From NCBI GenBank assembly GCA_913009875.1, contig CAJVYS010000002.1, positions 2,073 through 66,072 of the forward strand: 64,000 nucleotides of DNA. Reading direction: 5' to 3'. The DNA is from an uncultured Gammaproteobacteria bacterium. Its GTDB lineage: Bacteria > Pseudomonadota > Gammaproteobacteria > SZUA-152. Each line of letters opens with the position of its first letter. The first letter of the stretch is position 1. The translations under genes and the position numbers were made by a program. Shown here piece by piece: positions 4,481 to 59,975 of this stretch. The notes below the pieces were generated by a model. The model was not told the DNA's origin. It searched no databases and was given only the letters and a program-made list of their open reading frames with translations.

Positions 4481-4556
4481 GTAGGAGTGGACCCCTGGGC
4501 CGCGATTCGTCGCTGACAGAGATACCACCATCGCGGCCCGGGGGTTCGCTCCTACG
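4481..4556. repeat. REP-B hairpin: gtaggagtggacccctgggccgcgat ... atcgcggcccgggggttcgctcctac
   Basis: It is a near-perfect inverted repeat. The same family recurs at 20001-20073 and 26420-26490. Confidence 0.7.
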
Positions 4557-4563
4557 GGGTGAT

Positions 4564-4965: not shown

Positions 4966-5034
4966 TGGCAGGGCAGGTGGGATAACATCCCATTGCGAAC
5001 GATAGGGTACAGGGCTGTGGGAGCGGCTTCAGCC

Positions 5035-5081
5035 GCGAAGCATTCTTGGCACTGCCTTCGCGGCTGAAGCCGCTCCCACAG
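5035..5081. repeat. REP-A hairpin: ctgtgggagcggcttcagccgcgaa ... ttcgcggctgaagccgctcccacag
   Basis: The inverted repeat is perfect. The family recurs at 6108, 18741, 27240 (half) and 33471. Confidence 0.75.
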
Positions 5082-5122
5082 TAGTTTTTTGCCGCAGCCA
5101 AAGCGATTGAAGGGATAAAATT

Positions 5123-6049
5123 ATGTTCGGTCTTTTTTCAAAACAGTCCAACGCCGGCTATGCCGCCCTGGTACCCGGAGAAGCGGGCCTCTGCGTGGCC
5201 AGCATCGCCGCCAACGGCAAGCCGCCACGGCTGGAGGCCTGCGACTTCATGCCCTGGCCGGAAGGCGGGGATAAGAAAAAATTGCTGGCCGACGCGGTGC
5301 GCCGCCACCGGCTGGAAAAGCGCGCCTGTACCACGGTGATGGAACTGGACGACTACACGGTGTTGAGCGTAGAGGCGCCGGACGTGCCGCCGGATGAACT
5401 GCGGGCGGCGATTCGCTGGCAGATCAAGGATCTGATCGATTTTCATATCGACGACGCGGTGGTGGATATCTTCGATGCACCGCCCAGTGGCGCGCATGGC
5501 CGGCAGAATACGCTGTATGTGGTGGTGTCGCGGCTTTCCCGGGTGCGTGAGCGTGTCGACCCGCTGCAGGACGCCGAGGCCAATCTCACCACCATCGATA
5601 TTCCCGAACTGGTACTGCGCAATATTACCGCGCGCCTGCCGGAAGATGAGACCGGGGTGGCTTTCATCTATCTCACCCGTGAGCGTGGGTTGTTGATTAT
5701 TACCCGTCAGTCGACGCTGTATTTCGCCCGCACCCTGGGTATGGGTTATGCCGCGTTGAGTGATGGCGATCATGCGCAGTACGACCAACTGGTGCTGGAG
5801 GTGCAGCGCTCGCTGGATTATTACGACCGTTATTTTGTGCAGCCGCCGGTGGCGGGGTTGGTGCTGGCACCCTGCGAGGTGCCTCTGTCGGGGTTGGAAG
5901 GGTATCTGCACGATTCGCTGGGATTGGCCGTGCGTAGTCTGAACCTGCAAGAGATCATTGCCTGTGATCACGCCATGGACACCGCCACCCAGGCGCGCTG
6001 TCTGCCGGCCATTGGTGCGGCCTTGCGGCAGGAGCAGGCTGTTTTGTAA
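5123..6049 (+). CDS. MSHA biogenesis protein MshI-like (PilM-like N-terminal domain)
   Basis: The N-terminus MFGLFSKQSNAGYAALVPGEAGLCVASIA and the overall architecture resemble MshI-family proteins. It sits next to the pilin gene block. Confidence 0.5.
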   Translation: MFGLFSKQSNAGYAALVPGEAGLCVASIAANGKPPRLEACDFMPWPEGGDKKKLLADAVRRHRLEKRACTTVMELDDYTVLSVEAPDVPPDELRAAIRWQIKDLIDFHIDDAVVDIFDAPPSGAHGRQNTLYVVVSRLSRVRERVDPLQDAEANLTTIDIPELVLRNITARLPEDETGVAFIYLTRERGLLIITRQSTLYFARTLGMGYAALSDGDHAQYDQLVLEVQRSLDYYDRYFVQPPVAGLVLAPCEVPLSGLEGYLHDSLGLAVRSLNLQEIIACDHAMDTATQARCLPAIGAALRQEQAVL

Positions 6050-6050
6050 C

Positions 6051-6209
6051 AGCGGGCCATGCCCGCGATTGCTTTGCCTTTCACCAAGAGGTAATGGATT
6101 TGGACATTGTGGGAGCGGCTTCAGCCGCGAATGAAATCTGCCTTCTTCGCGGCTGAAGCCGCTCCCACAAGTTATTGTCTTTCGCTGTTTTTCGCGGGCA
6201 TGGCCCGCT
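6051..6209. repeat. Composite palindromic element, about 160 bp. The outer inverted repeats are agcgggccatgcccgcga / tcgcgggcatggcccgct, and the inner REP-A hairpin is at 6108-6169.
   Basis: The outer inverted repeat is seen directly. A second copy with the same architecture lies at 33424-33575. Confidence 0.6.
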
Positions 6210-12348: not shown

Positions 12349-14778
12349 CTATGGCACCAAGATACTGGTTCCGCTCCACAATTCGCCATCAGAACCATTT
12401 GAGCGAATCATGTCGCTGTAATTGCTTCCTTCGGCATAGTGAATGAAGCTGAAGGTATCTACACTCTGCGCTGTTAAGGCGCTGGTTTCTCTGAATTGGA
12501 AGTCGACTGGGTGAGCGCTATCAATGCTTGAGTCTGTGTAAAGAACAAGATAACTGTGCGTACAATCAGCGCACGTTGCATTTTCTACATACCACTCAAA
12601 ACTAATAGCAGGATCAACGCCATTAGCGAAGCTTCCTGTTTCCGGGTCAGCGGCAGTTGCGGCGGTGCCTGTATCATTGAATGTCGTGATTTCACCGTCG
12701 TTATCAAACGCATTTCCTGCAATATCCGCACGCGTAAGTGACTGGGCAGAACCGCAGTCCGCTATTGCGGCTTCAAAATCAGCGAAGCTATAGGGTGTGA
12801 TAGGCGCACCTAGTCCACCGTTAGCAGTATCATCCCATCCTGACTCTGTTGTGCATGCCAGCGATGAGCCGCTGCCAGAACCAGAACCTGTAGCGATTAT
12901 GCTGTTGATAACATCACTAATAGCCGTGCTGTTGAAGGCCGATCCGCCTGAATTGCTAGCTCCGGCGGGAGTGTAAGACCCTTCATAAACCGCATTGTTA
13001 TAGACGGAAAAGATTCTCTGCACATCGTTATCAGAATCCTCATTCAGATAGGCGTAGGTCGTTGCCACTGAGGCGGGAGTTTCATATGACAGTATCGCAG
13101 CCCCACTTACAGTCTGAATAGACCATGTGCTGGTTGCGACCTTATTAACTGAATGAAAACCGGTAGCATTATTGCGATTGACGTAATCCGTCAAATAGAA
13201 GTTTGCCGTACCTGATACTCCCGAGCCAACCAGTTCAACGATCATGCCTTGAGAAAGAGTACACAGGGTGTCACTACTGCTGGATGAATATGCGGGCTCA
13301 ATACAGCCCTCAGGTGAGCGTTTAAAACCTGCCCATACAGCCTTAGGTTCACTACTTCCGTCATCAACCCAAGCAGATGAAGATAGCAAGTCAGTCAAGC
13401 TAGCTGGCTGGGTAATCAAAGGAGTATCATCCAAGGTATAAGAAGCCGTATCATATGTAATGCTCATTATGTATGCCTTGGCACCCGCAGAGAAAACAGC
13501 GGTAGAGTCAACCGCTGAGCTAAAGCCGCCATTATCCGAACCATCAAGATAGGCCGAAATGTTTAAACCGGCTGCATCGACCACTTGAGAGCTGACGGTA
13601 AATGTTTCAACATCACAAGTAAATGTGCCGCTGCCATTGCTGTTAAAGGCGACTGTGCAGTTACTTAAATCATCACCGGCAGTTGAAGGAATCCAACCAT
13701 TATTCCCCAGATATACATCTGGCGATGAGGTAAGCGGCTCAAAAGTGCTTGAGGTGAAATTGTATGTGTACTGATTTTCTGTCACCACACCGCTGGCAGC
13801 GGTGATAGTGCCATATTCAATCTCTTGCCAGTCGGGGTTAATTTCACCCCATACCCAGTTAAAGCCATCAGCAAGCTGTTGTTCGAGTGTGGTGTTGGCT
13901 GCACTATTGGTCGCCTCAACCACGGCCACTTTGGTTTCAACTGTAGTGGTATCTACAGCAACATTGCTTGTTGTCGTTACAGCATCTGCATCAATAGAAC
14001 CATCAGTGGAAGCCGCTTCTGCTGTCTCAACTTCGGCAGTGATGGCCGCAAGCTGGGTCACTACTTCTTCCACCACAATCTGAATCAATGCGTCAAAGGC
14101 TTCATCAATAGTAAGATTTACACTGCCATTAGTGATGGCGGCTTCAATGGTTTCAATATTATTTGCCAGGGTACGGGCTGTTACCTGGGCAATATTATGC
14201 AAGGTAGCGTAATCACTAGCGGCCGCATTAGTGGAATCAGCTTTTGCTACGACATAGTCGGTGAAAAGTGAAACCGCAGCAGGATCCTTACCCATACTCG
14301 AGATTAACGCAGCTTCGGCCGCATCAACGGTCATATTAGGATTGGCTTCGATTTGGTTTTGTACCATTGTTGTTAACGGACTAATGAATGCAGACTTACC
14401 TATAGGTGCACTAAGAACAAACTTCTTGCCTACCGCCATTCCCGTATCTGAGTCTATCGCTTCAGCAGGCACTTCAACAAATATTGGGTATTGATTTAGC
14501 AGGGTCGCGTCCGTGACGTCGAGCGTATACGCGCCACCAGTCCCTGTGGTTGCAGAAGGCTCACCAGTATTACAGATTTTATTTTGATTGATATCAAGAC
14601 AGACTTTCGCGCCAGACAAATAGCCGTCAGCTACGATGCCCGATGTAGATCCAGGTGTTAAAGTCACAGGATTGTCACCGCCACCGCCACAACCCGTGAG
14701 GGCCAGCAGCAGTGCCGAGGGAATCAGTACATTTGTCCTTTGGTTATTATTTTGTCCAGTCAGCCAACGAAAATTCAT
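12349..14778 (-). CDS. Large lipoprotein of unknown function (809 aa). It has low GC and is probably horizontally acquired.
   Basis: The signal peptide carries a lipobox, LLLALTGCGGGG. An SGSGSGSS linker is present. The gene is about 48% GC against a backbone of about 64%. It has its own terminator and is flanked by AT-rich DNA with IS and MITE remnants. Confidence 0.6.
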   Translation of the reverse strand: MNFRWLTGQNNNQRTNVLIPSALLLALTGCGGGGDNPVTLTPGSTSGIVADGYLSGAKVCLDINQNKICNTGEPSATTGTGGAYTLDVTDATLLNQYPIFVEVPAEAIDSDTGMAVGKKFVLSAPIGKSAFISPLTTMVQNQIEANPNMTVDAAEAALISSMGKDPAAVSLFTDYVVAKADSTNAAASDYATLHNIAQVTARTLANNIETIEAAITNGSVNLTIDEAFDALIQIVVEEVVTQLAAITAEVETAEAASTDGSIDADAVTTTSNVAVDTTTVETKVAVVEATNSAANTTLEQQLADGFNWVWGEINPDWQEIEYGTITAASGVVTENQYTYNFTSSTFEPLTSSPDVYLGNNGWIPSTAGDDLSNCTVAFNSNGSGTFTCDVETFTVSSQVVDAAGLNISAYLDGSDNGGFSSAVDSTAVFSAGAKAYIMSITYDTASYTLDDTPLITQPASLTDLLSSSAWVDDGSSEPKAVWAGFKRSPEGCIEPAYSSSSSDTLCTLSQGMIVELVGSGVSGTANFYLTDYVNRNNATGFHSVNKVATSTWSIQTVSGAAILSYETPASVATTYAYLNEDSDNDVQRIFSVYNNAVYEGSYTPAGASNSGGSAFNSTAISDVINSIIATGSGSGSGSSLACTTESGWDDTANGGLGAPITPYSFADFEAAIADCGSAQSLTRADIAGNAFDNDGEITTFNDTGTAATAADPETGSFANGVDPAISFEWYVENATCADCTHSYLVLYTDSSIDSAHPVDFQFRETSALTAQSVDTFSFIHYAEGSNYSDMIRSNGSDGELWSGTSILVP

Positions 14779-15045: not shown

Positions 15046-15266
15046 CAAAGGGGGTAGTCAATTAACGCCTCCTAGCACAAGATATAGGAACTACATGTAA
15101 CTGGATTTCTCAGTATATTATCTTGTAATACGCTGTTTTTATTGCTAATAATATTCTCTTGTGTCGTCTGGTGTTAAGTCGCAAATACACAGCATATAGT
15201 GGGTGGAGGCGCTAGCTGACTACCCCCTTTTGTGCAATAGAACTACCCCCTTTTGTGCAATAGAAG
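15046..15266. mobile_element. MITE-like element with inverted repeats of about 28 bp (caaagggggtagtcaattaacgcctcc / ggaggcgctagctgactacccccttttg) and a tandem 23-bp duplication on the right
   Basis: The inverted repeats flank an AT-rich core of about 130 bp. The unit ctacccccttttgtgcaatagaa occurs twice in tandem. Confidence 0.4.
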
Positions 15267-15571: not shown

Positions 15572-16981
15572 TTAGCAGCTGTAGTACATATCGAACTCGA
15601 CCGGAGACGTGGTCATGCGCAGGCGCGTGATTTCTTCCATCTTCAGTTCGATGTAGGCGTCGATCATGTCGTTGGTGAAGACGTCGCCAGCGGTCAGGTA
15701 GTCGCGATCGGCGCTCAAGCATTCCAGGGCCTGATCAAAGGAGTGGCACACGGTGGGAATCTGTGCCGCTTCTTCGGCGGGCAGGTCATACAGATCCTTG
15801 TCCATGGCTTCGCCCGGATGGATCTTGTTCTGAATACCGTCCAGGCCGGCCATCATCATGGCGGCAAAGGCCAGGTAGGGGTTGGCGGTGGGATCCGGGA
15901 AACGCAGTTCGATGCGGCGACCCTTGGGGCTGCTGACGAACGGGATGCGGATGGAGGCCGAGCGGTTACGCGCGGAGTAGGCCAGCATCACCGGGGCTTC
16001 AAAGCCGGGCACCAGGCGCTTGTAGCTGTTGGTGGAGGCGTTGGTGAAGGCATTCAGTGAACGCGCATGCTTGATGATGCCGCCGATGTAATACAGTGCG
16101 GTCTCGCTGAGGCCGCCGTACTCGTTACCGGCGAAGATGTTTTCACCGTCCTTGGCCAGAGACATGTGCACGTGCATGCCGGAACCGTTGTCGCCCACCA
16201 GCGGCTTGGGCATGAAGGTGGCGGTCTTGCCATAGGCGTGGGCCACGTTGTGCACGCAATACTTGAGGATCTGGTTCATGTCGGCGCGCTTCACCAGGGT
16301 GTCGAACACGGTGCCGATTTCACACTGGCCGGCGGTGGCGACCTCGTGGTGATGGACTTCGACTTCAACACCCATGTCTTCCATGGCCAGACACATGGCG
16401 GCACGGATGTCGTGCAGGGAGTCGACCGGCGGTACGGGGAAGTAGCCGCCTTTGACGCCGGGACGATGGCCCATGTTGCCGTCTTCGTAGACCTTCTCGG
16501 AGTTCCACTCGGACTCCTCGGAATCGACCTTGTAGAAGGAGCCGGCCATGTTGGAGCCCCAACGTACGTCGTCGAGGATGAAGAATTCAGGCTCGGGACC
16601 GAAGTAGGCGGTGTCGGCAATGCCGGTGCTCTTCAGATAGGCTTCGGCGCGGCTGGCGACAGAGCGGGGGTCGCGTTCGTAACCCTGACCCGTGGAAGGT
16701 TCGACGATGTCGCAACGCAGGATCAGCTGGGTTTCATCGGCGAACAGATCCAGTACGGCCGTCGAGGTGTCCGGCATCAAAATCATGTCGGATTCGTTAA
16801 TCCCCTTCCAGCCGGCGATGGAGGAGCCGTCGAACATCTTGCCTTCGGTGAAGACGTCTTCGTCAACGGTGTGGGCGGGAACCGAGACGTGCTGTTCCTT
16901 GCCGATTGTGTCGGTAAAGCGGAAATCGACAAACTTCACATCATTTTCTTTAATGGTATTCAGAACGTCTTGAGCAGACAT
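15572..16981 (-). CDS. glnA: Glutamine synthetase type I
   Basis: The 469-aa protein has GS-I signatures (an N-terminal beta-grasp domain and the catalytic domain) and the adenylylation-region tail ...VEFDMYYSC. Confidence 0.9.
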
Positions 16982-33377: not shown

Positions 33378-33423
33378 CGTTTCGGACATTTATTGTAGGG
33401 TGTGTGGTTAACATACAAAGGAG

Positions 33424-33575
33424 TGGGCCATGCCCGCGATAGTCCCGCATTTCACCACAGAGATAGAGGATTTGCACATTGTGGGAGCGGCTTCAGCCGC
33501 GAAGAAGGCAGGTTTCATTCGCGGCTGAAGCCGCTCCCACAGGTTGTTTTTTGTTGCTTTTCGCGGGCATGGCCC
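33424..33575. repeat. Composite palindromic element, the second copy of the 6051-6209 architecture, with an inner REP-A hairpin at 33471-33543
   Basis: The outer repeats are gtgggccatgcccgcga / tcgcgggcatggcccg. Confidence 0.6.
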
Positions 33576-33669
33576 GTTCCTACGCTGTTGCAGACACAGT
33601 CCGGCAGCTTGTCGGCCGGCACTGATTGTCGCAGACTGTCCAAGAACCTGAACCCAAGGAGATCGACCC

Positions 33670-34248
33670 ATGGCCAAGTCCATCAAAGGTACGCAAACGG
33701 AAAAGAACCTGCTCATCGCCTTCGCCGGCGAATCCCAGGCACGCAATCGTTACACCTATTTTGCCAGCACTGCACGCAAGGAAGGCCTGATGCAGATTGC
33801 CGCGATCTTTGCCGAAACTGCCGATCAGGAAAAGGAACACGCCGAGCGTTTCTTCAAATTCCTCGAAGGTGGCGAAGTAGAGATCACCGAGAGTTTTCCC
33901 GCCGGCATTATCGGCGATACCCTGGAAAACCTGCGCGCCGCTGCCGCCGGTGAGGAGCATGAATGGAGCGAGTTATATCCGGGTTTTGCCAAGGTGGCAC
34001 GTGAGGAAGGTTTTGCCGAAATTGCTGCGGCCTTTGATGCCATTTCCATCGCTGAAAAACAGCACGGCAAGCGTTACACCGATCTGGCCAACAATCTCGA
34101 TGCGGGCCGGGTGTTTCGCCGCGACGGTAAGGTGGTCTGGCGTTGCCGTAATTGCGGTTATCTGCATGAAGCGGAAGAAGCACCGGAGGTCTGCCCGGCC
34201 TGCTTGCACCCGAAGGCCTATTTCGAATTACTGGGTGAGAACTGGTAA
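33670..34248 (+). CDS. Rubrerythrin
   Basis: It has ferritin-like diiron motifs (EGESQARNRY ... EKEHAE) and a C-terminal rubredoxin-like CxxC...CxxC (CRNCGY ... CPAC). Confidence 0.85.
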   Translation: MAKSIKGTQTEKNLLIAFAGESQARNRYTYFASTARKEGLMQIAAIFAETADQEKEHAERFFKFLEGGEVEITESFPAGIIGDTLENLRAAAAGEEHEWSELYPGFAKVAREEGFAEIAAAFDAISIAEKQHGKRYTDLANNLDAGRVFRRDGKVVWRCRNCGYLHEAEEAPEVCPACLHPKAYFELLGENW

Positions 34249-34261
34249 GCAAGTAGCTTGG
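34241..34261. repeat. Left copy of the 21-bp direct repeat actggtaagcaagtagcttgg, overlapping the rubrerythrin stop
   Basis: It matches 35428-35448 at 18 of 21 positions. Confidence 0.5.
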
Positions 34262-34347
34262 ATGAAGCGAAGCGTGATCCGGAGCAGGAAGGTGCCGCAT
34301 ATCCCGGATCACGTCGCACTCCATCCAGGCTGCCTTGCTAGGGGTGG

Positions 34348-35175
34348 ATGATGAGCAGTGATGTGGATGTAAAAAATGGAAGATATCTGCTATTTTTAGA
34401 TATCCTTGGTTTTAGTGAACTGGTTAAGTCTAAGGGCGTAGAAGAAATTTATGCAATTATAGATGAGTCACTACAAGAATTTGATCGATGGGAACACTTG
34501 AATAAATTATTTAAAACGATCTATTTTTCTGACACATTCATTTTTTATCAGGAGCCAAAAGGCTATGGTAAGTGGGCTTTCTTAGATGTATATGCCATTG
34601 GTGCAATGATCTTTTCTGCATTACTAGCTAAAGGAGTTCCTGTTAGAGGGGCGATTTCCTTTGGGGGTTTTGAGGTTCGATCAGATAGTTTAAGTAGACA
34701 TCAGGTATATTTCGGGGAAGCTCTAATTGAAGCATATAAAGCCGAACAAAGGGAAAATTGGATTGGAATAACGATACTAGAGTCTGCTTGGGCGCCATAC
34801 GAAGATGAAAATAGAGGTACTATAGCTGCTTTTGAAAGAGAGAGAGTTTGGAAAAAGAGGCACGATAGGGTATTGATGCTCAATCCGTTCCTTAAGTTGC
34901 GTGGTTGGTGCGGCGAAGACCGAATTGGTGAGATAGAAGGGCCTTATTTAGAGTGGGATGATCCGGAGTTCCCGAATGATATTCTTGCTTTTAAGTTTCT
35001 GCGTGAGCAGGCGGCCTCTTATAGCAAGAAGGGTGATTTCTCTGGTAACGTAGCGATTAAATATCACGCAACAATAGCTTTTCTTAAGGAGATTCTAGGT
35101 GTTGAGATATACGAATGGGGAGTGCGGATTAGCGAGCCTGATAAGGTGGGTGGGTCTTGTGTGCCCCCGCGTTAA
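34348..35175 (+). CDS. Divergent class-III nucleotidyl cyclase / GGDEF-fold (palm domain) protein with an unknown C-terminal region of about 100 aa; low GC
   Basis: YLLFLDILGFSEL matches the cyclase beta1 motif FxDIxGFT. A second acidic hairpin follows (KTIYFSDTFIFY), then VRGAISFGGF resembling RIGIHTGPV, then GEALIEAYKAE resembling GDTVNLASRLE. The gene is about 40% GC. Confidence 0.45.
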   Translation: MMSSDVDVKNGRYLLFLDILGFSELVKSKGVEEIYAIIDESLQEFDRWEHLNKLFKTIYFSDTFIFYQEPKGYGKWAFLDVYAIGAMIFSALLAKGVPVRGAISFGGFEVRSDSLSRHQVYFGEALIEAYKAEQRENWIGITILESAWAPYEDENRGTIAAFERERVWKKRHDRVLMLNPFLKLRGWCGEDRIGEIEGPYLEWDDPEFPNDILAFKFLREQAASYSKKGDFSGNVAIKYHATIAFLKEILGVEIYEWGVRISEPDKVGGSCVPPR

Positions 35176-35396
35176 CTTGGTAGTGTGCTCTTTTCCGTCC
35201 GCTGTCTGCCGGCCGCAATAGCTCAGCGCATTGTGCCATATGTTGATCGTCGCAAGTTAAGTCTGGCTATCTCCTGTTGCAGGTCACCACTTTCGGCGTA
35301 ATGCCCTTCGGTTATTGCGCCCTGCGGCTTGGCGGGTTCATAAGGGATGGGGCCTGATGTATCCCCATGAAGTTATTTCGTTACACTGCTCTGCGG

Positions 35397-35421
35397 TGTA
35401 ACGAAATAAACTGGTAAGCAA
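35397..35421. repeat. 23-25-bp perfect palindrome cgttacactgctctgcggtgtaacg, of the GTRACACCGC-N3-GCGGTGTYAC family
   Basis: The same palindrome recurs at 42663-42687. The related variant tgtgacaccgcNgagcggtgtcaca occurs at 42745 and 59947. Confidence 0.55.
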
Positions 35422-35427
35422 GCAGTC

Positions 35428-35448
35428 TGGCCTGCAGCTTTGATTCAG
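35428..35448. repeat. Right copy of the 21-bp direct repeat actggtaagcaagcagtctgg
   Basis: Direct repeat of 34241-34261. Confidence 0.5.
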
Positions 35449-35598
35449 AGCCCAGCAGCCTCTACGAGAGTGTTTTCCTTGCTCCGTCTGCAGTAACGTT
35501 AGACTGCCATGGCTCTACCCTTCGGCTAGATGAAATATGCTGGAATCCGAAGGGCGTTCTCTAGTTAAAACACCTCTGTACAATAATAACCCTGAGAG

Positions 35599-36432
35599 AT
35601 GATTATGGATAACCTGGAAAAATATATGGATCAGGCGATCAGTCTGAGTATGGCTTACGGCCCTAAACTGTTGCTGGCGTTGATCGTTCTCGTTGTCGGT
35701 TTGCGGCTGATTAAATCCGTGGTGAAGTTACTTAATCGTGCCATGGAGAAAAGCCATACCGAAGACACGCTAAGGAGCTTCCTGGATAATCTGTTGGGTG
35801 TTCTCCTCAAGGTTCTGCTGCTGATCAGTGTCGCCGCGATGGTTGGCGTGGAGACCACTTCGTTCATTGCCATACTCGGTGCCGCTGGTCTTGCCATTGG
35901 TCTTGCACTACAAGGTAGTTTGGCAAACTTTGCCGGCGGCCTCCTTATCCTGTTTTTCAAACCCTTTAAGGTGGGTGATGTTATCGATGCCCAGGGGTAT
36001 CTGGGCGTGGTGCGTGAAATTCAGGTATTCAATACGATCATCCTCACCCTGGATAACAAAAAAGTGATTATCCCCAATGGCAATCTTTCCAATGGCTGCG
36101 TAGAAAATGTCTTTAGTGAGCCCACCCGCCGGGTCGATCTTACCTTTGGCATCAGTTACAACGATGACATTCTCTTTGCCAAAGAGGTGTTGCGTAAAGT
36201 GATCACCAGTGATGAGCGTATTCTTACTGACGCTGATCATGCGCATGAGATTTATGTGGCGGAACACGGCGACAGCTCCGTCAATCTGCTGGTTCGTGTC
36301 TGGGTCAATACCGAGGACTACTGGCCTGTGCATTTCCATCTCATGGAGCAGGTCAAGCTCAGCTTCGACAAGGAAGGTATTTCCATTCCCTTCCCGCAAC
36401 GGGATGTTCATCTCTTTCAGCCGGCGGGGTAG
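35599..36432 (+). CDS. Small-conductance mechanosensitive channel, MscS family
   Basis: It has three transmembrane helices followed by the conserved MscS beta-domain (GDVIDAQGYLGVVREIQVFNTIILTLDNKKVIIPNG). Confidence 0.8.
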   Translation: MIMDNLEKYMDQAISLSMAYGPKLLLALIVLVVGLRLIKSVVKLLNRAMEKSHTEDTLRSFLDNLLGVLLKVLLLISVAAMVGVETTSFIAILGAAGLAIGLALQGSLANFAGGLLILFFKPFKVGDVIDAQGYLGVVREIQVFNTIILTLDNKKVIIPNGNLSNGCVENVFSEPTRRVDLTFGISYNDDILFAKEVLRKVITSDERILTDADHAHEIYVAEHGDSSVNLLVRVWVNTEDYWPVHFHLMEQVKLSFDKEGISIPFPQRDVHLFQPAG

Positions 36433-36626: not shown

Positions 36627-37229
36627 TCAGGATCGGACAAATTGAAGCAATGGTCCGTAATCATGGTTGTCAGCTGCCCGGAGAGCTGCGACATATGCTT
36701 TTCGTGTCTTGCTGGCATCTACAAGATTAATGCGTCCCCAGGTAAATCGAGGGCGGCCTGAGGCTGTTAGCAGCAGGTCGGCTGCCAATCGGGCGTGGCG
36801 ACCATTGCCATTCGGAAAAGGATGGATCAATACCAGGTGGTGATGGAACCGCGTAGCGATTTCATCAGGATCATAGGTGCCATTCTCTATCCAGTAACGA
36901 CAATCGTCGACAAGCTGTCGAAGGCCGGTTGAAATGCGATAGGCATCGACGCCAATATTGCGTTCCGATTGCCGGAACTTGCCAGCCCACCGCCAGACCC
37001 GACCAAACATTCTCTGGTGAAGATTTTTAAGGAACCTCTCATCGAGCACATCACGCTTGCGTGAAAATGCCCATTCCTCTGCTTCCAGAATATTGGCCTG
37101 TTCTGCTTCATTCAGTTCTGAGCGCAGCGTGATATAGGAGGGGGCCAACTGTTCCCGCTCTTCTTCCGTCAATGGGGTGGATGCGTCATCCTGCTCATCC
37201 AACGGATCGGTCATCCATCTTCCTTCCAA
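36627..37229 (-). CDS. Fic/DOC family protein (mobile mystery protein B)
   Basis: The Fic motif HPFPNGNGRHAR is present. The partner HTH gene lies directly upstream with overlapping ends. Confidence 0.75.
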   Translation of the reverse strand: MEGRWMTDPLDEQDDASTPLTEEEREQLAPSYITLRSELNEAEQANILEAEEWAFSRKRDVLDERFLKNLHQRMFGRVWRWAGKFRQSERNIGVDAYRISTGLRQLVDDCRYWIENGTYDPDEIATRFHHHLVLIHPFPNGNGRHARLAADLLLTASGRPRFTWGRINLVDASKTRKAYVAALRAADNHDYGPLLQFVRS

Positions 37230-37693
37230 AGCTCGGAGCTTGCCTTATCCCGCAGGTTTTGGATCATGCGCTTAAGCTGTTCTTGTTCGTCCATTGCATC
37301 AATGCCCTGGGCTTCAAGGGCCATGCTGTGGCGTGTTGATTCCAGCCGTTTCCTGGCGAGGTGTTCAGCGCGCTCGGCGACCAATTCGTCGAGCGGCTTC
37401 CTTGGCACCAACGCATATACCAGACGGCAATCCAGGGCATGGGCCGCTTTTTCGAGGGTGTTTAGCGTAATTGTGCCTTTGGTCTCCGCTTGCTCAATAG
37501 CAACGGCACGCGACTGAACAACCCCCAGCCGTTTTGCCATCTGGGTGGTTGTCATGCCTAAGGCCTCACGGATGGCCTTGATCCATCCGCGTGGCGGACG
37601 TGCAAATAACTCTGCTTTTTTTTCCAATTCAGTCAACCGCTTATCAAGCTGGCGGCGGGCCGTGGCTCGATCTTTCGAGCGCATTATAATCAC
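37211..37693 (-). CDS. HTH (XRE-like) protein, mobile mystery protein A
   Basis: It has a helix-turn-helix (MTTTQMAKRLGVVQSRAVAIEQ) and a characteristic C-terminal coiled region. Its end overlaps the Fic gene. Confidence 0.7.
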   Translation of the reverse strand: MIIMRSKDRATARRQLDKRLTELEKKAELFARPPRGWIKAIREALGMTTTQMAKRLGVVQSRAVAIEQAETKGTITLNTLEKAAHALDCRLVYALVPRKPLDELVAERAEHLARKRLESTRHSMALEAQGIDAMDEQEQLKRMIQNLRDKASSELWKEDG

Positions 37694-37872
37694 CTTTATA
37701 TGATAAATAATTTCTGTTAATATTGCATATATATAATAGCTTGACAGAAAATAATTACAAATTTGTGATAATTTAGGAATTAATCAAGCATAAATATGTG
37801 ATCGCTTAGTTCTGGTTTTCTAAGGGGGGGCACCCTGTTGATGTGGTCTGGTAGGAAGGATTGCTCTACCCT

Positions 37873-42662: not shown

Positions 42663-42687
42663 CGTTACACCGCTCTGCGGTGTAACG
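42663..42687. repeat. Perfect palindrome cgttacaccgctctgcggtgtaacg
   Basis: Second copy of the element at 35397. Confidence 0.55.
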
Positions 42688-42720: not shown

Positions 42721-42776
42721 GGCGCCGAGCGCCACAGGATGTGTGACACCGCGGAGCGGTGTCACAAGCAAGCCCC
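42721..42776. repeat. 50-bp double-palindrome element: ggcgccgagcgcc followed by tgtgacaccgcggagcggtgtcaca
   Basis: A near-identical copy lies at 59927-59975. Confidence 0.55.
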
Positions 42777-44816: not shown

Positions 44817-44893
44817 GCGCCTGTAGCTCAGCTGGATAGAGTACCGCCCTCCGAAGGCGGGGGTCACAGGTTCGACTCCTGTCAGGCGCGCCA
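44817..44893 (+). tRNA. tRNA-Arg (anticodon CCG)
   Basis: It has a cloverleaf fold with acceptor stem gcgcctg/caggcgc, anticodon loop ctCCGaa, T-arm ggttcgact and a CCA end. Confidence 0.85.
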
Positions 44894-44955
44894 TTTCTTA
44901 TTATTAATCAATAAGTTACAGCACTTTCCATTTTCACTTATGGTTTTCTACCTTT

Positions 44956-45150
44956 GGCACAAGCGGGCACAGCCATCGTAACTATTAGCTAACATTCATT
45001 TTTAAAATTGACCGTTAGCCAACATAGTGGATTTTGTGCCCATTTTAGCCTGTGCCCAGATTGTGCCCACCCTGTGCCATGTTTGAAATTTCGGGTTTAA
45101 ATATTAGACGGTATGAGCTCAATTTTGATTGTTAGCTTCCGTGGGCACAG
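44956..45150. promoter_or_regulatory. Iteron-like array of TGTGCCCA-type repeats immediately downstream of tRNA-Arg
   Basis: tgtgcccat, tgtgcccag, tgtgcccac and tgtgccatg occur at a period of about 11 bp. There are also gggcacag copies and an inverted gtgggcacag. Confidence 0.35.
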
Positions 45151-45396
45151 AAACCATGAAGTAGTCCGGAATCGAGTTAGGTCCGAAGGAAATTTAAACG
45201 AAGGAATTCTAGTTGGCCGATACTTGGAGTTTTGCCAATAACCATACGTTCTTACTAATGCCCCATAATTGTTGTTTGTCAGTGTATTTGATTTCAAATG
45301 CCCATCACGCAATGTCAATGGAAGCATCAATAGCTTGCGCAATCAAAACATCAATGCTAGAATCAATTTAAGCCAGTAGAAGGAGCCTACAATTCA

Positions 45397-46677
45397 ATGA
45401 ACAAAGTTACCCAATTCCCACGGGCGGTACGCTCGACACCTGATCCACTTGGCTTGTACCTTCGCCCAAACCATAATGATCACAAGGTTTTATCTGAGCT
45501 GATCACTGCTGGGGATACGGCTTTTTGTGGCGCTGTCTTAGATCCCTCCCATCTCAAACGCCAAAGCGAACTACGTGACCAAATTTTAGATAGGCGGATT
45601 GATTTAATCTTGGATCCAAAAACTCAAGAGGCTGCAGCTCCTGGCAGATTTTCGGAAAACCTAGGAAAACTTCCTTGGGTCGGAGGTCGTTGCAACACAT
45701 TTCATGATTTCTCTGGTACACAGGGAAGGCGGCGCGTAACTGAGCTAGCGAAATTCGCGATTGATGAGGGGTTTACTCAAGTAATGGCCCCAACACATTA
45801 TTTACAATCAGCTGATGATCCGTGGCTTGAGCTAGATATTGATAATGCTATCAAATTAAGAAATCTCTTAGACAGGCACTCGCAGCAACGTATCCCGATT
45901 ATTTACTCGTTAGCTATTCCGTATAAAGTTTTTCGTAACTCTGAGCAGCGAAATATATTGATCAATGAGCTTCAGCGGGCACCAATCGATTCTCTATGGT
46001 TAAAAATCGGTAGTATGGGATCGCATGCCACTTCTACAGGAATTATTAATTACATCAAGGCTTCAGAGGAATTTCATACCCTAGGTGTTCCAATTGTTGG
46101 CGACTATATCGGCGGAATGGCTGGGCTATCATTGCTTTCATTTGGCGCAGCGGGTGGAATAGCTCATGGTATAACCTTTGGTGAAAGGTTTGACCCAAGC
46201 AGTTGGGCCAAGCAGCCAAAGAAGGGAAGCTTTGGCCAAGAACGTCGTGTTTATGTTGCAGCAATCGACATGATGCTTAAACCTAAGCAAGCTGAAATGC
46301 TATTTGAAGCATCAGTCAGGGCAAAATCATTATTTGGGTGCAGAGATAAACACTGTTGCCCAAGAGGCATTCAAGACATGGTCGGTAATCCTGCAAGACA
46401 TTTTATGGTGCAACGATTAAAACATGTTTCTGAATTATCACAGATCCCTGAACAGCTTAGACCTCAGCGCTTTCTGGAAAGACATCTTCGACCGGCAACA
46501 GACTTGGCTGTATCCGCAGAACGTATAGATTGGAAAGATGATGAAATGATGCGAAAGACTCAAAAAAATAGAGCGCGATTAGATAATCTTCGGGTTGCGC
46601 TAGGCAACCAAGCAGTGAAAAAACCGCCAAGCTCTTTCTCTCAGCACCCTAAAACTAGAGTGAGCAGGGAATCCTGA
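45397..46677 (+). CDS. Hypothetical protein, 426 aa, low GC (about 45%); the island cargo gene
   Basis: It is a long ORF with a Shine-Dalgarno sequence (aaggag) upstream. No family was recognised by eye. Confidence 0.5.
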   Translation: MNKVTQFPRAVRSTPDPLGLYLRPNHNDHKVLSELITAGDTAFCGAVLDPSHLKRQSELRDQILDRRIDLILDPKTQEAAAPGRFSENLGKLPWVGGRCNTFHDFSGTQGRRRVTELAKFAIDEGFTQVMAPTHYLQSADDPWLELDIDNAIKLRNLLDRHSQQRIPIIYSLAIPYKVFRNSEQRNILINELQRAPIDSLWLKIGSMGSHATSTGIINYIKASEEFHTLGVPIVGDYIGGMAGLSLLSFGAAGGIAHGITFGERFDPSSWAKQPKKGSFGQERRVYVAAIDMMLKPKQAEMLFEASVRAKSLFGCRDKHCCPRGIQDMVGNPARHFMVQRLKHVSELSQIPEQLRPQRFLERHLRPATDLAVSAERIDWKDDEMMRKTQKNRARLDNLRVALGNQAVKKPPSSFSQHPKTRVSRES

Positions 46678-46721
46678 TGTTTTCAATAAACTATGTTTTA
46701 ACAAACAAGTACACGTAATCT

Positions 46722-47063
46722 ATGAATGCGAACGTCATATCTCGAAAGTTGGAAGCTATACAGACCAAAGGCGCTATGCGTTCGGTTGATGTAGCCAATC
46801 TGCTGGGCACAAGGCCTGAAACAGTTTCTCGTTGGAACCAAGGTAAGGCATTTCCACGCCGTTCAGCTGAAAAGACCCTTCTTGAACTCGAGTTTATAGT
46901 TGACCAACTCTCTGATTTTTACGAACCACAAGAAGCACGAATGTGGTTATTTTCACCACAGAAACTCCTAGTCGGTAGAAGACCAGCTGATTTGATTCAA
47001 TCTGGTGAAACAGAAGTAATTATAGAACTTATAGAGCAGCTGCGCGATGGCGTGTATATCTAA
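46722..47063 (+). CDS. Xre/MbcA/ParS-family antitoxin (HTH plus a DUF2384-like toxin-binding domain)
   Basis: It is 113 aa long, has a helix-turn-helix (VDVANLLGTRPETVSRWNQGK) and ends 14 bp before the RES gene. Confidence 0.75.
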   Translation: MNANVISRKLEAIQTKGAMRSVDVANLLGTRPETVSRWNQGKAFPRRSAEKTLLELEFIVDQLSDFYEPQEARMWLFSPQKLLVGRRPADLIQSGETEVIIELIEQLRDGVYI

Positions 47064-47077
47064 TTTGGGGGGCTGAT

Positions 47078-47617
47078 TTGATCCACAACCCTGAATTACT
47101 AGAAAGGCTAGCTGAGTTTGAAATCAAGCCATTCAGTTCTGAAGTTTACAGAGCTTGCAGGAAGGGATTAGATCCGACTACATCGTCGACACGCGGTGGC
47201 CGCTGGGCAAAACGTAATGGTTGCTCCGTGCTTTATACTAGTCTTACAAGCGATGGTGCATTAGCCGAACTTAGCTTCCACTGGGGTCAATTGAATCCAG
47301 TACCTACTAAGCAAGCGTTTCTGTATCGGCTACGTGTTACTACGAAACAAAGCCTTCGTCTGATAATGGCAGATTTAGCCACGTTAGGGGTCAATGAAGG
47401 GCAGTATTCAGAGATCCCTTACCCTCTCTGTCAAGAAATTGGGGAAGCAGTCGGTTTTCTTGGATGCGATGGATTAATTGTTCCCTCAGCAAGATGGAAT
47501 TGTGAGAATTTAGTGTTGTTTACAGATTCCCATAGTTTGGACGAGCAGCTTGAGATAGTAGGTTTGTCCGAAGTGGATTGGTTGGGCTGGGCCAGAAAAA
47601 ATGGGGTACAGTTATAA
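47078..47617 (+). CDS. RES-domain toxin (MbcT/ParT-like NAD+-targeting); it has a TTG start
   Basis: The R...E...S motif residues are present (TRGGRW ... ELSFHW ... LIVPSARW). The protein is 179 aa long with gggggg as a Shine-Dalgarno sequence. Confidence 0.75.
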   Translation: MIHNPELLERLAEFEIKPFSSEVYRACRKGLDPTTSSTRGGRWAKRNGCSVLYTSLTSDGALAELSFHWGQLNPVPTKQAFLYRLRVTTKQSLRLIMADLATLGVNEGQYSEIPYPLCQEIGEAVGFLGCDGLIVPSARWNCENLVLFTDSHSLDEQLEIVGLSEVDWLGWARKNGVQL

Positions 47618-47625
47618 ATTACTAC

Positions 47626-48324
47626 CTAGCCAGCAGCAAAGGATACAGCTTCATTTCTGAAAAAGGATTTCACTAAAGCCATATCCTGGGCAATCAACTC
47701 CAAGTCGATGAATGTTCTCTCCCGCAGGGATTCGCCTTTTTTGAGTGGTGACCTTGCCGTACCAGTTTGCCGCATGTAGTTCCATACCAACTCATCTGGG
47801 TTAAGGTCGGGTGCATAGGGCGGCAGTATGAATATACTCAGACGGCCCTTTAGACTGGCGACATATTCTTTTACCTTTTTGCTCTTATGCACGGGATGGC
47901 CATCCGTAATAACATAAATGGGCTTCTTGCGATTGCGAATCAAGTCTTTCAAACATTCGATACAAACATCAGCATTAAAACGCTCCGTATAGACCCGGTA
48001 CCAAAAACCACCGCTGTTCGATAGGGCTGAAATGGCATTAACACCTTGCCGTTGACCACTTGTTTTTACGGTTGGTGTTTGACCTTTTAGGCCCCAGGTT
48101 CTCATTAATGGATCATCCGAACGTATTGATGCTTCATCTAGCCAGAATATCTCTGCGCCTTGTTTTTTCGCGCTTTTCCTGATTTCAGGATAAGTCTCCT
48201 CTTTCCACTTTTTAATTTCAGCATCATCCCGTTCATAAGCTCGGCGCATCGGTTTTTGTGGGCTAAGCCCCAGACGATGAAGCAAATCACCAACAGGCAA
48301 GTGAAAAAAAGAATCTGGTCCCAT
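47626..48324 (-). mobile_element. IS630/Tc1-family transposase gene, 5'-truncated (DDE domain only, 232 aa)
   Basis: The IS630 motifs [29 protein letters not shown] and [15 protein letters not shown] are present. The upstream N-terminal HTH region is missing, with a stop 2 codons upstream in frame. Confidence 0.7.
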
Positions 48325-59678: not shown

Positions 59679-59926
59679 ACATATTCTTTCAGAATGTATT
59701 TTCTCTTCCTTTTGTATTAAGGATCATTATCTCAATTTCCATTTGTACGGCTCTTTTAGTAACTGCATTCATAGATTTCATGGCCCTAGAAAGGGTAATC
59801 CAATCTGTGGATGTCACGCTAAATATTAACGGTATTGCCTTGTGCGGGAACTTCATGATTCCACCAGTTTAAGCGGTCAAAGCCCTTATTGCCCTCTTGC
59901 TTGAGTTTTCTTCCGCGGATTAGGGT

Positions 59927-59975
59927 GGCGCGGAGCGCCACAGGATGTGTGACACCGCAGAGCGGTGTCACAAGC
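59927..59975. repeat. 50-bp double-palindrome element, a copy of 42721-42776
   Basis: ggcgcggagcgccacaggatgtgtgacaccgcagagcggtgtcacaagc. Confidence 0.55.

What the first reader, a model, noticed from the sequence alone, without database searches (positions are those of the whole stretch)
34241..35448. Precisely bounded 1.17-kb low-GC cassette encoding a divergent cyclase-fold protein, inserted at the rubrerythrin stop codon
A 21-bp sequence, actggtaagcaag[t/c]ag[ct/tc]tgg, that overlaps the rubrerythrin stop codon is repeated 1.17 kb downstream at 35428-35448. The DNA between the copies is about 40% GC against a backbone of about 64%. It carries a single gene whose product has the class III nucleotidyl cyclase / GGDEF palm signature. 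That signature is the beta1 FLDILGFS with a metal Asp, a second acidic hairpin YFSDTF, and RGAISFGGF / GEALIEAYKAE in place of RIGIHTG / GDTVNLASRLE, with the transition-state Asn/Arg replaced. A C-terminal domain of about 100 aa is unknown. Standalone minimal cyclases of this kind are the signal generators of Pycsar-like anti-phage systems, but no canonical effector with a cNMP-binding domain plus a TM or TIR module is adjacent. The direct repeats look like a target-site or att duplication from a site-specific insertion of a one-gene cassette. This is a candidate novel signalling or defence module.
Basis: partly seen in the sequence, partly recalled or inferred. Interest (0 to 1): 0.8.

Follow-up and report, generated by a model that had tools for sequence, protein, structure and literature searches.

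The report
Orphan cyclase-fold gene, likely phage defence
A foreign, AT-rich single gene downstream of rubrerythrin encodes an uncharacterised protein with a divergent nucleotide-cyclase fold and a novel helical tail, and because its relatives sit in phage-defence hotspots across many phyla without any fixed partner gene, it is a candidate stand-alone anti-phage enzyme.

Summary

The family is rare and patchy across phyla at 54-68% identity. It is AT-rich relative to its hosts and has no conserved neighbour in 30 other loci. It lies inside type I R-M operons between hsdS and hsdR, in a P4-like satellite hotspot, in Mu-like prophages, and beside AbiE, TIR, Schlafen, NACHT, HipA and Fic genes. 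This points to a stand-alone defence gene, not a Pycsar member.

The "precisely bounded cassette" is only partly right. The repeat exists, with 14 nt exact and 19 of 22 matching, but copy 2 is at 35409-35430. Only the ORF is AT-rich. The 3' spacer carries a host REP. No empty site was found, and no other locus has such repeats.

The parts
33670..34248 (+). Rubrerythrin gene (192 aa). Its last codons and stop codon form copy 1 of the repeat. It is context only, not part of the module.
   Evidence: Pfam Rubrerythrin 1.3e-30 and RUBY_RBDX 8.5e-16. Rubrerythrins 93-97% identical in related MAGs sit in a different context and have no insert.
34240..34261 (+). Direct repeat copy 1, AACTGGTAAGCAAGTAGCTTGG. 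It overlaps the rubrerythrin codons AAC TGG TAA.
   Evidence: AACTGGTAAGC is the native rubrerythrin 3' end in L050.
34248..34339 (+). 92-nt imperfect hairpin filling the spacer between rubrerythrin and the ORF. It includes the 3' half of repeat copy 1. It is GC-rich and has no other copy in the window.
   Evidence: DNA fold -26.2 kcal/mol, z = -4.1, and 0 of 200 shuffles fold as well. Inverted repeat I2. No other copy in the window.
34348..35175 (+). The gene: 275-aa two-domain protein, 40.9% GC (GC3 34.8%). A tandem ATG ATG start follows a GGGGTGG Shine-Dalgarno-like run.
   Evidence: 319 homolog clusters at 59-100% identity. The 275-aa sequence is also found in Logan data, and the 274-aa version called from the second ATG in an ENA marine metagenome.
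34378..34827 (+). Residues about 11-160: divergent class III cyclase-homology (palm) domain. Metal Asp codons are D18 (34399-34401) and D62 (34531-34533). The putative phosphate-binding Arg is R100 (34645-34647).
34840..35133 (+). Residues about 165-262: conserved helical C-terminal domain of unknown fold family, with the motifs LLLNPF, PEFPND and AIKYHxT.
35176..35408 (+). 233-nt 3' spacer, 52.8% GC, host-like. It holds a small hairpin at about 35295-35321 and a perfect 17-bp-stem REP-like palindrome at 35373-35409 that abuts repeat copy 2.
   Evidence: Fold z = -5.5 and -7.0. The REP core recurs at 42663-42687, with 0 expected by chance. The motif CCTTCGGTTATTGCGCCCTGCGG recurs at the 5' end of L047. 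No attC-like structure follows the stop codon (z = +2.09).
35409..35430 (+). Direct repeat copy 2, AACTGGTAAGCAAGCAGTCTGG.
35599..36432 (+). MscS-type mechanosensitive channel gene (277 aa) with no cNMP-binding domain. It is a neighbour, not a conserved partner.
   Evidence: Pfam MS_channel domains only. No MscS neighbour in any other locus.
36627..37693 (-). Fic/DOC protein (36627-37229) with an overlapping upstream HTH_3 protein (37211-37693), a toxin-antitoxin or defence-like pair. It is a marker that this stretch is an accessory or defence islet.
   Evidence: Pfam Fic 1.3e-13 and HTH_3 1.7e-07. PADLOC PDC-S04 3.4e-26 and SoFic 2e-13.

Best explanation
The feature is a horizontally acquired single gene, not a self-mobile cassette. 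It landed in a REP-rich accessory stretch between ygiQ and a GCS2-like gene, directly downstream of rubrerythrin.

The gene encodes a member of an uncharacterised two-domain family. The N-terminal domain has a strongly diverged class III cyclase fold. It keeps the two-metal/NTP-binding half of the active site (D18, D62, R100) and has lost the canonical transition-state Asn and Arg. The C-terminal helical domain of about 100 aa is found only in this family.

Shown: the fold, the residue conservation, the foreign composition, the patchy cross-phylum distribution, the lack of any conserved neighbour, and the recurrent placement in defence or mobile-element hotspots.

Inferred: the protein is a self-contained anti-phage (abortive-infection type) enzyme. 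I think the C-terminal domain most likely senses or gates. A phage cue would then let the cyclase-fold domain turn over NTPs with metal ions. The result would be either NTP depletion or a nucleotide product read by an unlinked host receptor. The conserved C-domain K238/Y239 may complete the active site in place of the missing Asn/Arg.

The 14/22-nt direct repeat is most likely the footprint of the single recombination event that placed the gene here, by a short-homology or att-like crossover at the rubrerythrin 3' end. This is not demonstrated.

For: Active site: the PDB profile search aligns D18 and D62 with the metal Asp of sGC-beta and AC5. Across 123 divergent representatives, D18 is 112/114, D62 118/118, R100 108/122 and G123 121/123.

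Family: there are 319 close clusters and 2,584 representatives at E<=1e-3. None of those tested hits Pfam or PADLOC.

Horizontal transfer: 24 close loci (plus one 24%-identity archaeal match) were found among 185,579 species genomes, spread over Pseudomonadota, Desulfobacterota, Bacteroidota, Spirochaetota, Planctomycetota and Verrucomicrobiota at 54-68% identity. The gene is AT-rich relative to distal flanks in 19 of 25 loci.

No partner: clustering of all ORFs within 6 kb in 30 other loci found only the family itself recurring. Adjacent ORFs are unrelated to each other.

Defence context:
- L029 has hsdM-hsdS-[gene]-hsdR with 4-nt overlaps on both sides.
- L031 has hsdS...[gene]-NucS-like-Fic-hsdR.
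- A P4-like satellite has integrase-[194 aa]-[gene]-Fic-AlpA-Ogr/Delta-primase.
- Mu-like prophages of Pseudomonas carry it.
- Other islands carry TIR_2 with AbiEi/Eii, or SLFN, HNH, NACHT and UvrD, or HipAB.
- A PADLOC scan of 123 neighbours hits type I R-M, AriA (3), mad3/mad8 (4) and SoFic (2).
- In the window itself a Fic/HTH pair lies 1.4 kb downstream.

A distant relative of the domain is fused to a GmrSD_N (DUF262) domain in Bacillus wiedmannii. The repeat is improbable by chance, 3.5e-4, and unique among the loci tested.
Against: There is no experimental evidence for defence. The family is absent from PADLOC v2 (2023) and I found no paper describing it.

The defence association is qualitative. 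I computed no genome-wide enrichment statistic, and several contexts are simply mobile or REP-rich DNA (RAYT/REP in L010; IS elements and IscB in L043).

Loss of the canonical Asn/Arg (position 127 is I/V/L in 113 of 122; position 131 is E/K/D/R) may mean that the domain binds nucleotide without cyclising it.

The mapping of those two positions rests on motif order and fold. The second half of the domain has no HMMER-detectable similarity to solved cyclases.

A single-protein cyclase has no obvious effector. The roles proposed for the C-domain are speculation, because I could not inspect the model coordinates.

For the repeat, no empty site was found, the element has no recombinase, the inter-repeat DNA includes a host REP, and homology to the nearest homolog stops at the ORF ends.
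Confidence: 0.5

Rival explanations
1. The protein would be a bona fide cNMP synthase whose signal activates a dedicated effector encoded elsewhere or not yet recognised.
Against: No PADLOC or Pfam cyclase model hits the protein. No cNMP-binding, TIR or TM protein recurs next to the gene in 30 other loci. The one nearby TIR_2 protein (L006) is separated by a Rap1a-like gene, shows no CNBD hit, and is unique to that locus. All described immune cyclase clades have linked effectors. The transition-state Asn/Arg are absent family-wide.
Confidence: 0.12
2. The protein is a non-catalytic pseudo-cyclase. The domain would only bind a nucleotide and act as a sensor or regulator, for example in mobile-element maintenance, addiction or regulation, with the C-domain as the output.
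Against: Both metal-coordinating Asp are essentially invariant across 123 representatives that differ by more than 50%, together with S61, R100 and several Gly. That pattern is what catalysis would predict.
Confidence: 0.15
3. The gene is a phage or satellite counter-defence or host-takeover factor, for example one that makes decoy nucleotides or rewires host cNMP signalling. The chromosomal copies would be prophage or satellite remnants.
For: The gene occurs in Mu-like prophages, a P4-like satellite and one GenBank phage record. PHROG phrog_23933 matches the N-terminal domain at E 7e-10.
Against: Viral carriage is very rare: 1 of 50,697 GenBank phages and 2 of 2.9 million IMG/VR contigs. Embedding inside hsdS-hsdR operons with overlapping stop and start codons is typical of host defence cargo. 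Prophage and satellite hotspots themselves usually carry defence genes (PMC9122126, listed).
Confidence: 0.1
4. The segment 34262-35408 is a discrete mobile cassette inserted by site-specific recombination, with the 22-bp repeats as attL and attR or as a target-site duplication.
For: The flanking repeat has 14 nt exact and 19 of 22 matching, with chance 3.5e-4. Mismatches are confined to the 3' part, as expected for hybrid att sites. The repeat is absent elsewhere. The same gene sits at a different locus in a related organism (L047, from the same JGI sample as the 97%-identical rubrerythrin contig L050).
Against: The unit has no recombinase and no terminal inverted repeats. Its 3' 233 nt are host-like, with a REP that recurs at 42663-42687. 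Homology to L047 ends at the ORF boundaries, so the spacers do not travel with the gene. None of 26 other loci has flanking repeats. No attC-like structure is present. No empty site was recovered.
Confidence: 0.3
5. The gene is an ordinary housekeeping signalling cyclase with a fixed genomic role.
For: UniRef auto-names two members 'Guanylate cyclase domain-containing protein'.
Against: The family was found in about 25 of 185,579 species genomes (a lower bound, because the scan is pattern-based), is scattered across phyla, sits in different contexts everywhere, has foreign composition, and has no sensory or membrane domains.
Confidence: 0.03

Closest known systems
Class III adenylyl/guanylyl cyclase catalytic domains (CHD; Pfam Guanylate_cyc)
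   Different: The Pfam model gives no hit even at E<=1. The second half of the domain has no detectable sequence similarity to solved cyclases. The hairpin reads YFSDTF instead of GDxY. The transition-state Asn is replaced by Ile, Val or Leu, and the Arg position is variable and often acidic. There is no sensory or membrane domain. A unique C-terminal helical domain is attached.
Pycsar (PycC cyclase plus PycTM or PycTIR effector) and the related Pucsar clade
   Same: It is a small, stand-alone cyclase-fold protein of about 230-280 aa in defence islands, structurally similar to PycC (7r65, 8jsf).
   Different: There is no PADLOC hit. No linked cNMP-binding TIR or 3TM effector appears in any of 31 loci, whereas described immune cyclase clades are defined by such partners. 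The catalytic Asn/Arg are not conserved. The C-terminal domain is not the AGS-C sensor by Pfam (no hit).
Defence genes embedded in type I R-M operons (e.g. the PrrC anticodon nuclease between hsdS and hsdR; from my own knowledge) and cargo of P4-satellite or prophage hotspots (PMC9122126)
   Same: The genomic placement is the same: between hsdS and hsdR with overlapping stop and start codons, next to a P4-like integrase, and in the accessory region of a Mu-like prophage.
   Different: The protein family is unrelated, and no function has been shown.
Cyclase-like ATP-binding (non-catalytic) domains, e.g. PDB 6yii
   Different: This family keeps both metal Asp invariant, and it is a short stand-alone protein rather than part of a large regulator.

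Membership tests
Class III nucleotidyl cyclase superfamily (fold level) | A beta-alpha-beta-beta-alpha-beta palm fold that superposes on CHD structures | tested here: met
Class III nucleotidyl cyclase superfamily (fold level) | Two metal-binding Asp, on beta1 and on the beta2-beta3 hairpin | tested here: met
   HMMER aligns D18 and D62 to the metal Asp of 3et6 and 1cjk. D18 is 112/114 and D62 118/118.
Class III nucleotidyl cyclase (Pfam Guanylate_cyc family membership) | A match to the curated family HMM | tested here: not met
   There are zero Pfam or NCBIfam hits at E<=1 or E<=10 for the window protein. There are none at E<=0.1 for 10 divergent members.
Class III nucleotidyl cyclase (catalytically canonical) | Transition-state Asn and Arg on helix alpha4 | tested here: not met
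   Position 127 is I/V/L in 113 of 122 members. Position 131 is E in 48, K in 18, D in 16 and R in 9. The mapping relies on motif order and predicted secondary structure, not on superposition.
Class III nucleotidyl cyclase (catalytically canonical) | A head-to-tail dimer that forms the active sites, and cNMP production | not testable with these tools
   No multimer prediction or biochemistry was available.
Pycsar / Pucsar | The cyclase is recognised by PycC models | tested here: not met
   PADLOC-DB v2 gives no hit.
Pycsar / Pucsar | An adjacent effector with a cNMP-binding domain plus a TM or TIR module | tested here: not met
   No recurrent neighbour family appears in 31 loci. The window neighbour is a plain MscS channel.
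GGDEF diguanylate cyclase / mCpol (Cas10-palm) families | A GG(D/E)EF or GGDD hairpin motif and a family HMM match | tested here: not met
Integron gene cassette | An attC recombination site (structured imperfect palindrome ending in GTTRRRY) directly 3' of the ORF | tested here: not met
   The segment 35160-35290 folds no better than shuffled sequence (z = +2.09). Homology to L047 ends at the stop codon.
Site-specifically integrated element (att duplication or TSD) | Direct repeats at both ends | tested here: met
   14 nt exact and 19 of 22 matching, at 34240-34261 and 35409-35430. Chance is 3.5e-4.
Site-specifically integrated element (att duplication or TSD) | An empty site with a single repeat copy in related genomes | tested here: inconclusive
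   The closest rubrerythrin loci (93-97% aa) have a different gene order and no MscS. The metagenome scan found only an unrelated hit.
Site-specifically integrated element (att duplication or TSD) | The whole unit, with its ends, moves together, and other copies show the same ends | tested here: not met
   The spacers are not conserved in L047. None of 26 loci has flanking repeats of 12 nt or more. The 3' end is a host REP.
Defence-island / hotspot cargo gene | Recurrent co-location with known defence systems and mobile-element hotspots in unrelated genomes | tested here: met
   The evidence is qualitative; no background-corrected enrichment was computed.
Defence-island / hotspot cargo gene | Demonstrated protection against phage | not testable with these tools
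   This requires experiments.

The most novel reading that the evidence does not exclude
This family would be a previously unrecognised single-protein nucleotide-based immune enzyme. A cyclase-fold domain has lost the canonical trans-acting catalytic residues and is completed or gated in cis by a private C-terminal domain (conserved N179, K238, Y239, T242). It would work without any dedicated effector, either by collapsing the NTP pool or by producing a non-canonical nucleotide product. That would be a mechanism distinct from Pycsar, CBASS, Thoeris and type III CRISPR signalling.
Probability: 0.2. Interest if true: 0.8.

Novelty: new variant of a known kind. Interest (0 to 1): 0.6.

Why it matters
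All characterised bacterial immune cyclases (Pycsar, Pucsar, CBASS, Cas10, mCpol) work as signal generators paired with a linked effector. This family has a cyclase fold and sits in the classic defence slots: the hsdS-hsdR gap, a P4-like satellite hotspot, prophage accessory regions and defence islands. It never has a fixed partner, and it has lost the canonical transition-state residues while keeping the metal site.

If it protects against phage, there are two possibilities. Either a cyclase-fold enzyme can be a complete immune system on its own, or it uses an unlinked receptor. Either outcome would widen the known logic of nucleotide-based immunity.

The family has about 2,500 50%-identity clusters in public data and no Pfam, NCBIfam or PADLOC model, so current annotation pipelines cannot see it. 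Cultivable-host homologs in Pseudomonas and Azotobacter make it directly testable.

Tried and rejected
1. Pfam, NCBIfam and PADLOC scans of the protein and of 10 divergent relatives gave no hits. PHROGs gave only phrog_23933, of unknown function.

2. I looked for a conserved partner gene. All-against-all BLAST of ORFs within 6 kb in 31 loci (the window plus 30 others), plus targeted comparison of the immediately adjacent ORFs, found none.

3. I tested the integron-cassette idea, prompted by the stop codon inside CGTTAAC and a GTTAAGT 80 nt downstream. I rejected it: the segment has no attC-like structure (z = +2.09) and homology to L047 stops at the stop codon.

4. I searched for an empty site three ways. 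An exact-protein look-up of rubrerythrin and MscS found nothing on record as queried. The closest rubrerythrin loci are not syntenic. The JGI metagenome scan with the degenerate 22-mer found one unrelated hit inside an integrase gene.

5. I tested whether the 3' hairpin is element-specific. It is not: it is a host REP with a second copy at 42663-42687.

7. Foldseek against afdb50 was unavailable. BFVD gave only generic cyclase hits.

8. A profile of the second half of the cyclase domain against PDB gave only spurious hits. The Asn/Arg mapping could therefore not be confirmed at sequence level.

9. Rfam, promoter/terminator and tRNA scans around the locus found nothing relevant.

10. Four literature searches and three papers gave no description of this family.
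Full report
OBSERVATION.

The window holds one intact ORF at 34348-35175 (+), 275 aa, 99 nt downstream of a rubrerythrin gene at 33670-34248.

The direct repeat is real, but the second copy is misplaced in the finding. Copy 1 is AACTGGTAAGCAAGTAGCTTGG at 34240-34261 and copy 2 is AACTGGTAAGCAAGCAGTCTGG at 35409-35430. The two share 14 nt exactly and 19 of 22 overall. The 13-mer core has no third exact copy in the 64-kb window. A scan of JGI metagenome contigs with the degenerate 22-mer returned a single unrelated hit inside an integrase gene.

In 20,000 first-order Markov simulations of the two flanks (200 nt upstream, 423 nt downstream), an exact direct match of at least 14 nt arose with frequency 3.5e-4. 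In 26 homologous loci analysed with 300-nt upstream and 450-nt downstream flanks, the longest flanking repeat was 11 nt. The repeat is therefore unlikely to be chance. It is also specific to this locus and is not a property of the gene family.

The composition claim needs correction. Only the ORF is AT-rich, at 40.9% GC with GC3 of 34.8%. The 5' spacer is 60.6% GC, the 3' spacer 52.8%, and the whole inter-repeat segment 44.9%. The window mean is 57.7%. The flanking core genes ygiQ and a GCS2-like gene are 64-65.5% GC with GC3 of 80-85%. Rubrerythrin, the MscS gene and the Fic/HTH pair all have intermediate GC3 (51-62%). The whole stretch from 33.4 to 37.9 kb therefore looks like a composite accessory region.

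ANATOMY OF THE SPACERS.

The 5' spacer is almost entirely a 92-nt imperfect hairpin at 34248-34339 (z = -4.1). This hairpin incorporates the 3' half of repeat copy 1.

The 3' spacer ends in a perfect 17-bp-stem palindrome at 35373-35409 (z = -7.0) that abuts copy 2. The core of that palindrome, CGTTACACYGCTCTGCGGTGTAACG, recurs at 42663-42687 just after another gene, with zero matches expected by chance. It is therefore a REP-like element of the host genome.

A second REP family, TGTGGGAGCGGCTTCAGCCGCGAA palindromes, sits upstream of rubrerythrin at 33480-33541. It also flanks another ORF at 5016-5080 and 6108-6169.

No attC-like structure follows the stop codon (z = +2.09). No Rfam family, sigma-70 consensus promoter, intrinsic terminator or tRNA is associated with the locus.

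IS IT A BOUNDED MOBILE CASSETTE?

A marine-metagenome contig (L046, DRR093004) is 99.9% identical over window 34042-36431 and has the same arrangement.

The next closest homolog is L047 (86% aa, roughly 88% nt). Its DNA aligns with the window only from about 12 nt before the ATG to the stop codon. Both flanks are unrelated, and rubrerythrin is not upstream. L047 comes from the same JGI sample as L050, which carries a 97%-identical rubrerythrin with a different gene order: an ABC-F gene upstream and a convergent gene 118 nt downstream, with no insert and no MscS. Rubrerythrin loci at 93% identity (L051-L056) show the same kind of arrangement.

In L050 the rubrerythrin gene ends ...GAGAACTGGTAAGC, so copy 1 of the repeat is the native gene end. 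I could not find an empty site. The 'cassette' carries no recombinase, and its spacers do not travel with the gene.

My reading is that the gene was placed here by one recombination event, whose crossover used 14-22 nt of similarity to the rubrerythrin 3' end. This could have been att-like or short-homology integration of a circular intermediate. It remains an inference (about 0.3-0.4), and the unit is not a recognisable class of mobile element.

THE PROTEIN.

The protein has no Pfam, NCBIfam or PADLOC match, even at permissive thresholds.

A profile search of PDB sequences gives only weak hits (E 0.25-0.6), five of the six to cyclases. These align D18 (FLDILGFS) and D62 (YFSDTF) with the two metal-binding Asp. 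The second half of the domain has no detectable sequence similarity to solved cyclases.

I measured conservation over 123 divergent representatives, drawn from 50%-identity clusters in a profile search of 1.84 billion proteins. That search gave 2,584 hits at E<=1e-3 and 436 at E<=1e-10. D18 (112/114), S61-D62 (112/118 and 118/118), P98, R100 (108/122), G101, G106, G123 (121/123) and G140 are near-invariant. By motif order, position 127 corresponds to the transition-state Asn. It is Ile, Val or Leu in 113 of 122 members. The Arg position, 131, is E, K, D or R. The metal/triphosphate half of the site is therefore under strong selection, and the canonical catalytic completion is gone.

DISTRIBUTION AND CONTEXT.

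The close family comprises 319 clusters at 90% identity, nearly all about 266 aa and annotated 'hypothetical'. UniRef auto-names a few of them 'Guanylate cyclase domain-containing protein'.

Among 185,579 species-representative genomes, 24 close loci plus one 24%-identity archaeal match were recovered. This is a lower bound, because the scan is pattern-based. The loci are scattered over Pseudomonas, Nitrosomonas, Nitrotoga, Polynucleobacter, Denitromonas, Hydrogenophaga, Parvibaculum, Mariprofundaceae, Desulfobulbales, Cyclobacteriaceae, Spirochaetes, Planctomycetes and Verrucomicrobia, at 54-68% identity. The gene is more than 5 GC points below its distal flanks in 19 of 25 loci. It occurs in 1 of 50,697 GenBank phages, 2 of 72,556 plasmids and 2 of 2.9 million IMG/VR contigs.

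Clustering all ORFs within 6 kb in 31 non-redundant loci (the window plus 30 others) found no recurrent neighbour apart from the family itself. ORFs that overlap its start by 4 nt in three contexts are unrelated to one another.

The contexts are characteristic:
- In a Parvibaculum MAG the order is hsdM-hsdS-[gene]-hsdR, with 4-nt overlaps on both sides.
- In Ca. Aalborgicola the order is hsdS...[gene]-NucS-like-Fic-hsdR.
- In a P4-like satellite the gene lies right after the integrase and is followed by Fic, AlpA, Ogr/Delta and a primase.
- In Mu-like prophages of Pseudomonas it lies between the early and late regions.
- Other islands carry TIR_2 with AbiEi/AbiEii, or Schlafen, HNH, NACHT and UvrD, or HipAB.
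- One locus is flanked by RAYT/REP copies.
- A Methylobacter megaplasmid carries it between IscB and IS630.

Scanning 123 neighbours gave hits to type I R-M components, AriA-like proteins (3), mad3/mad8 (4), SoFic (2), integrases (4), HipA (2) and PIN (2). In the window itself, a Fic/DOC protein with an HTH partner (PADLOC PDC-S04 3.4e-26, SoFic 2e-13) lies 1.4 kb downstream. A distant relative of the cyclase-like domain (27% identity) is fused to a GmrSD_N/DUF262 domain in a Bacillus wiedmannii plasmid protein.

INTERPRETATION.

The descriptive part is well supported. This is a horizontally transferred, partner-less gene for a divergent cyclase-fold protein with a private C-terminal domain, and it is cargo of defence and mobile-element hotspots.

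The functional part is inference. I consider a stand-alone anti-phage (abortive-infection type) enzyme the most likely reading, at about 0.5. The cyclase-fold domain would bind NTP and two metal ions and turn the NTP over. The C-terminal domain would gate, sense, or complete the active site.

The main rivals are:
- a Pycsar-like signal generator with an unlinked effector (0.12);
- a non-catalytic nucleotide sensor (0.15);
- a phage or satellite counter-defence factor (0.10);
- a housekeeping cyclase (0.03), effectively excluded by distribution and context.

COMPARISON WITH KNOWN SYSTEMS.

At fold level the protein belongs to the class III cyclase superfamily. It fails the sequence-family tests for Guanylate_cyc, GGDEF and the PADLOC Pycsar models. 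It also lacks the defining linked effector of Pycsar and Pucsar; the published immune cyclase clades all have such partners.

Four full-text searches and three papers did not reveal a description of this family. I cannot exclude a description in sources that were not searched, or in defence-system databases released after 2023.

VERDICT.

Its 'precisely bounded cassette with att duplication' is only partly borne out, and Pycsar membership is not supported.

I rate the finding a new variant of a known kind, with interest 0.6. It is an unannotated, experimentally tractable family that could be the first effector-less cyclase-fold immune protein. No function is demonstrated, and the field already holds many untested defence candidates.

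Noticed in passing
window 5016-5080, 6108-6169, 33480-33541: A REP-like palindrome family, TGTGGGAGCGGCTTCAGCCGCGAA ... TTCGCGGCTGAAGCCGCTCCCACA, has three copies in the window. Two of them bracket the PilM-like ORF 5123-6049 exactly. The third is nested inside a larger inverted repeat (33419-33581) upstream of rubrerythrin.
   Followed up: partly
window 35379-35403, 42663-42687; also 42729-42760 and 59926-59973: A second REP-like family, CGTTACACYGCTCTGCGGTGTAACG, occurs here. A related GTGTGACACCGC(G/A)GAGCGGTGTCACA palindrome is preceded by GGTGGCGC(C/G)GAGCGCCACAGGATG. These elements sit just downstream of genes.
   Followed up: partly
window 36627-37693 (-) and 37694-37872: A Fic/DOC protein (200 aa) overlaps an upstream HTH_3 protein (160 aa). 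They hit PADLOC PDC-S04 and SoFic models. Next to them is a 179-nt intergenic region of 32% GC that holds the palindrome AAATAATTACAAATTTGTGATAATTT, a likely operator. Fic proteins also lie within three genes of the cyclase-like gene in L002 and L031. This may be no more than island co-location.
   Followed up: partly
window 12349-14778 (-) and surrounding 12-16 kb: This is a low-GC stretch (about 49%). It holds an 809-aa ORF with no Pfam hit, next to glutamine synthetase (15572-16981). An exact 23-nt tandem duplication lies at 15219-15264.
   Followed up: no
window 44817-48000: tRNA-Arg(CCG) at 44817-44893 is followed by a low-GC region (44-51%) that holds a 426-aa ORF (45397-46677) with no Pfam hit. 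This may be a tRNA-linked islet. No integrase domain was detected in that ORF.
   Followed up: partly
P0391 (84,233-bp NCBI/ENA contig that also carries the identical rubrerythrin P0270 and YgiQ P0392): On what is probably the source contig, the deposited gene call for the cyclase-like gene is only a 99-aa C-terminal piece that starts at MLNPFLKL. The window has an intact 275-aa ORF. This is either a gene-calling artefact in AT-rich DNA or a sequence difference.
   Followed up: no
L044 (Bacillus wiedmannii plasmid p536, WP_215559167.1, locus 4428-5744): This 438-aa protein has a GmrSD_N (DUF262) domain at residues 37-183. It is followed by a distant relative (27% identity) of the cyclase-like domain. 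The cyclase-like domain takes the place where GmrSD enzymes carry their DUF1524 nuclease (the GmrSD architecture is from my own knowledge).
   Followed up: partly
L010 6590-9450 and L047 85-130: In L010 the homolog is bracketed by near-identical RAYT (REP-associated tyrosine transposase) genes with GGTTGGGGTGAGGAACGAACCCCAAC REPs. L047 has a similar REP, GGTTGGGGTGAACGGTTTTTGTGAACCCCAAC, upstream of its copy. The gene is repeatedly found in REP-rich spacers.
   Followed up: no
L057 (PPYF01131368.1) 5432-5453: The only metagenome match to the 22-mer lies inside a tyrosine-recombinase gene, where it encodes ...VELVSKQLGHSS.... I treat this as coincidence.
   Followed up: yes
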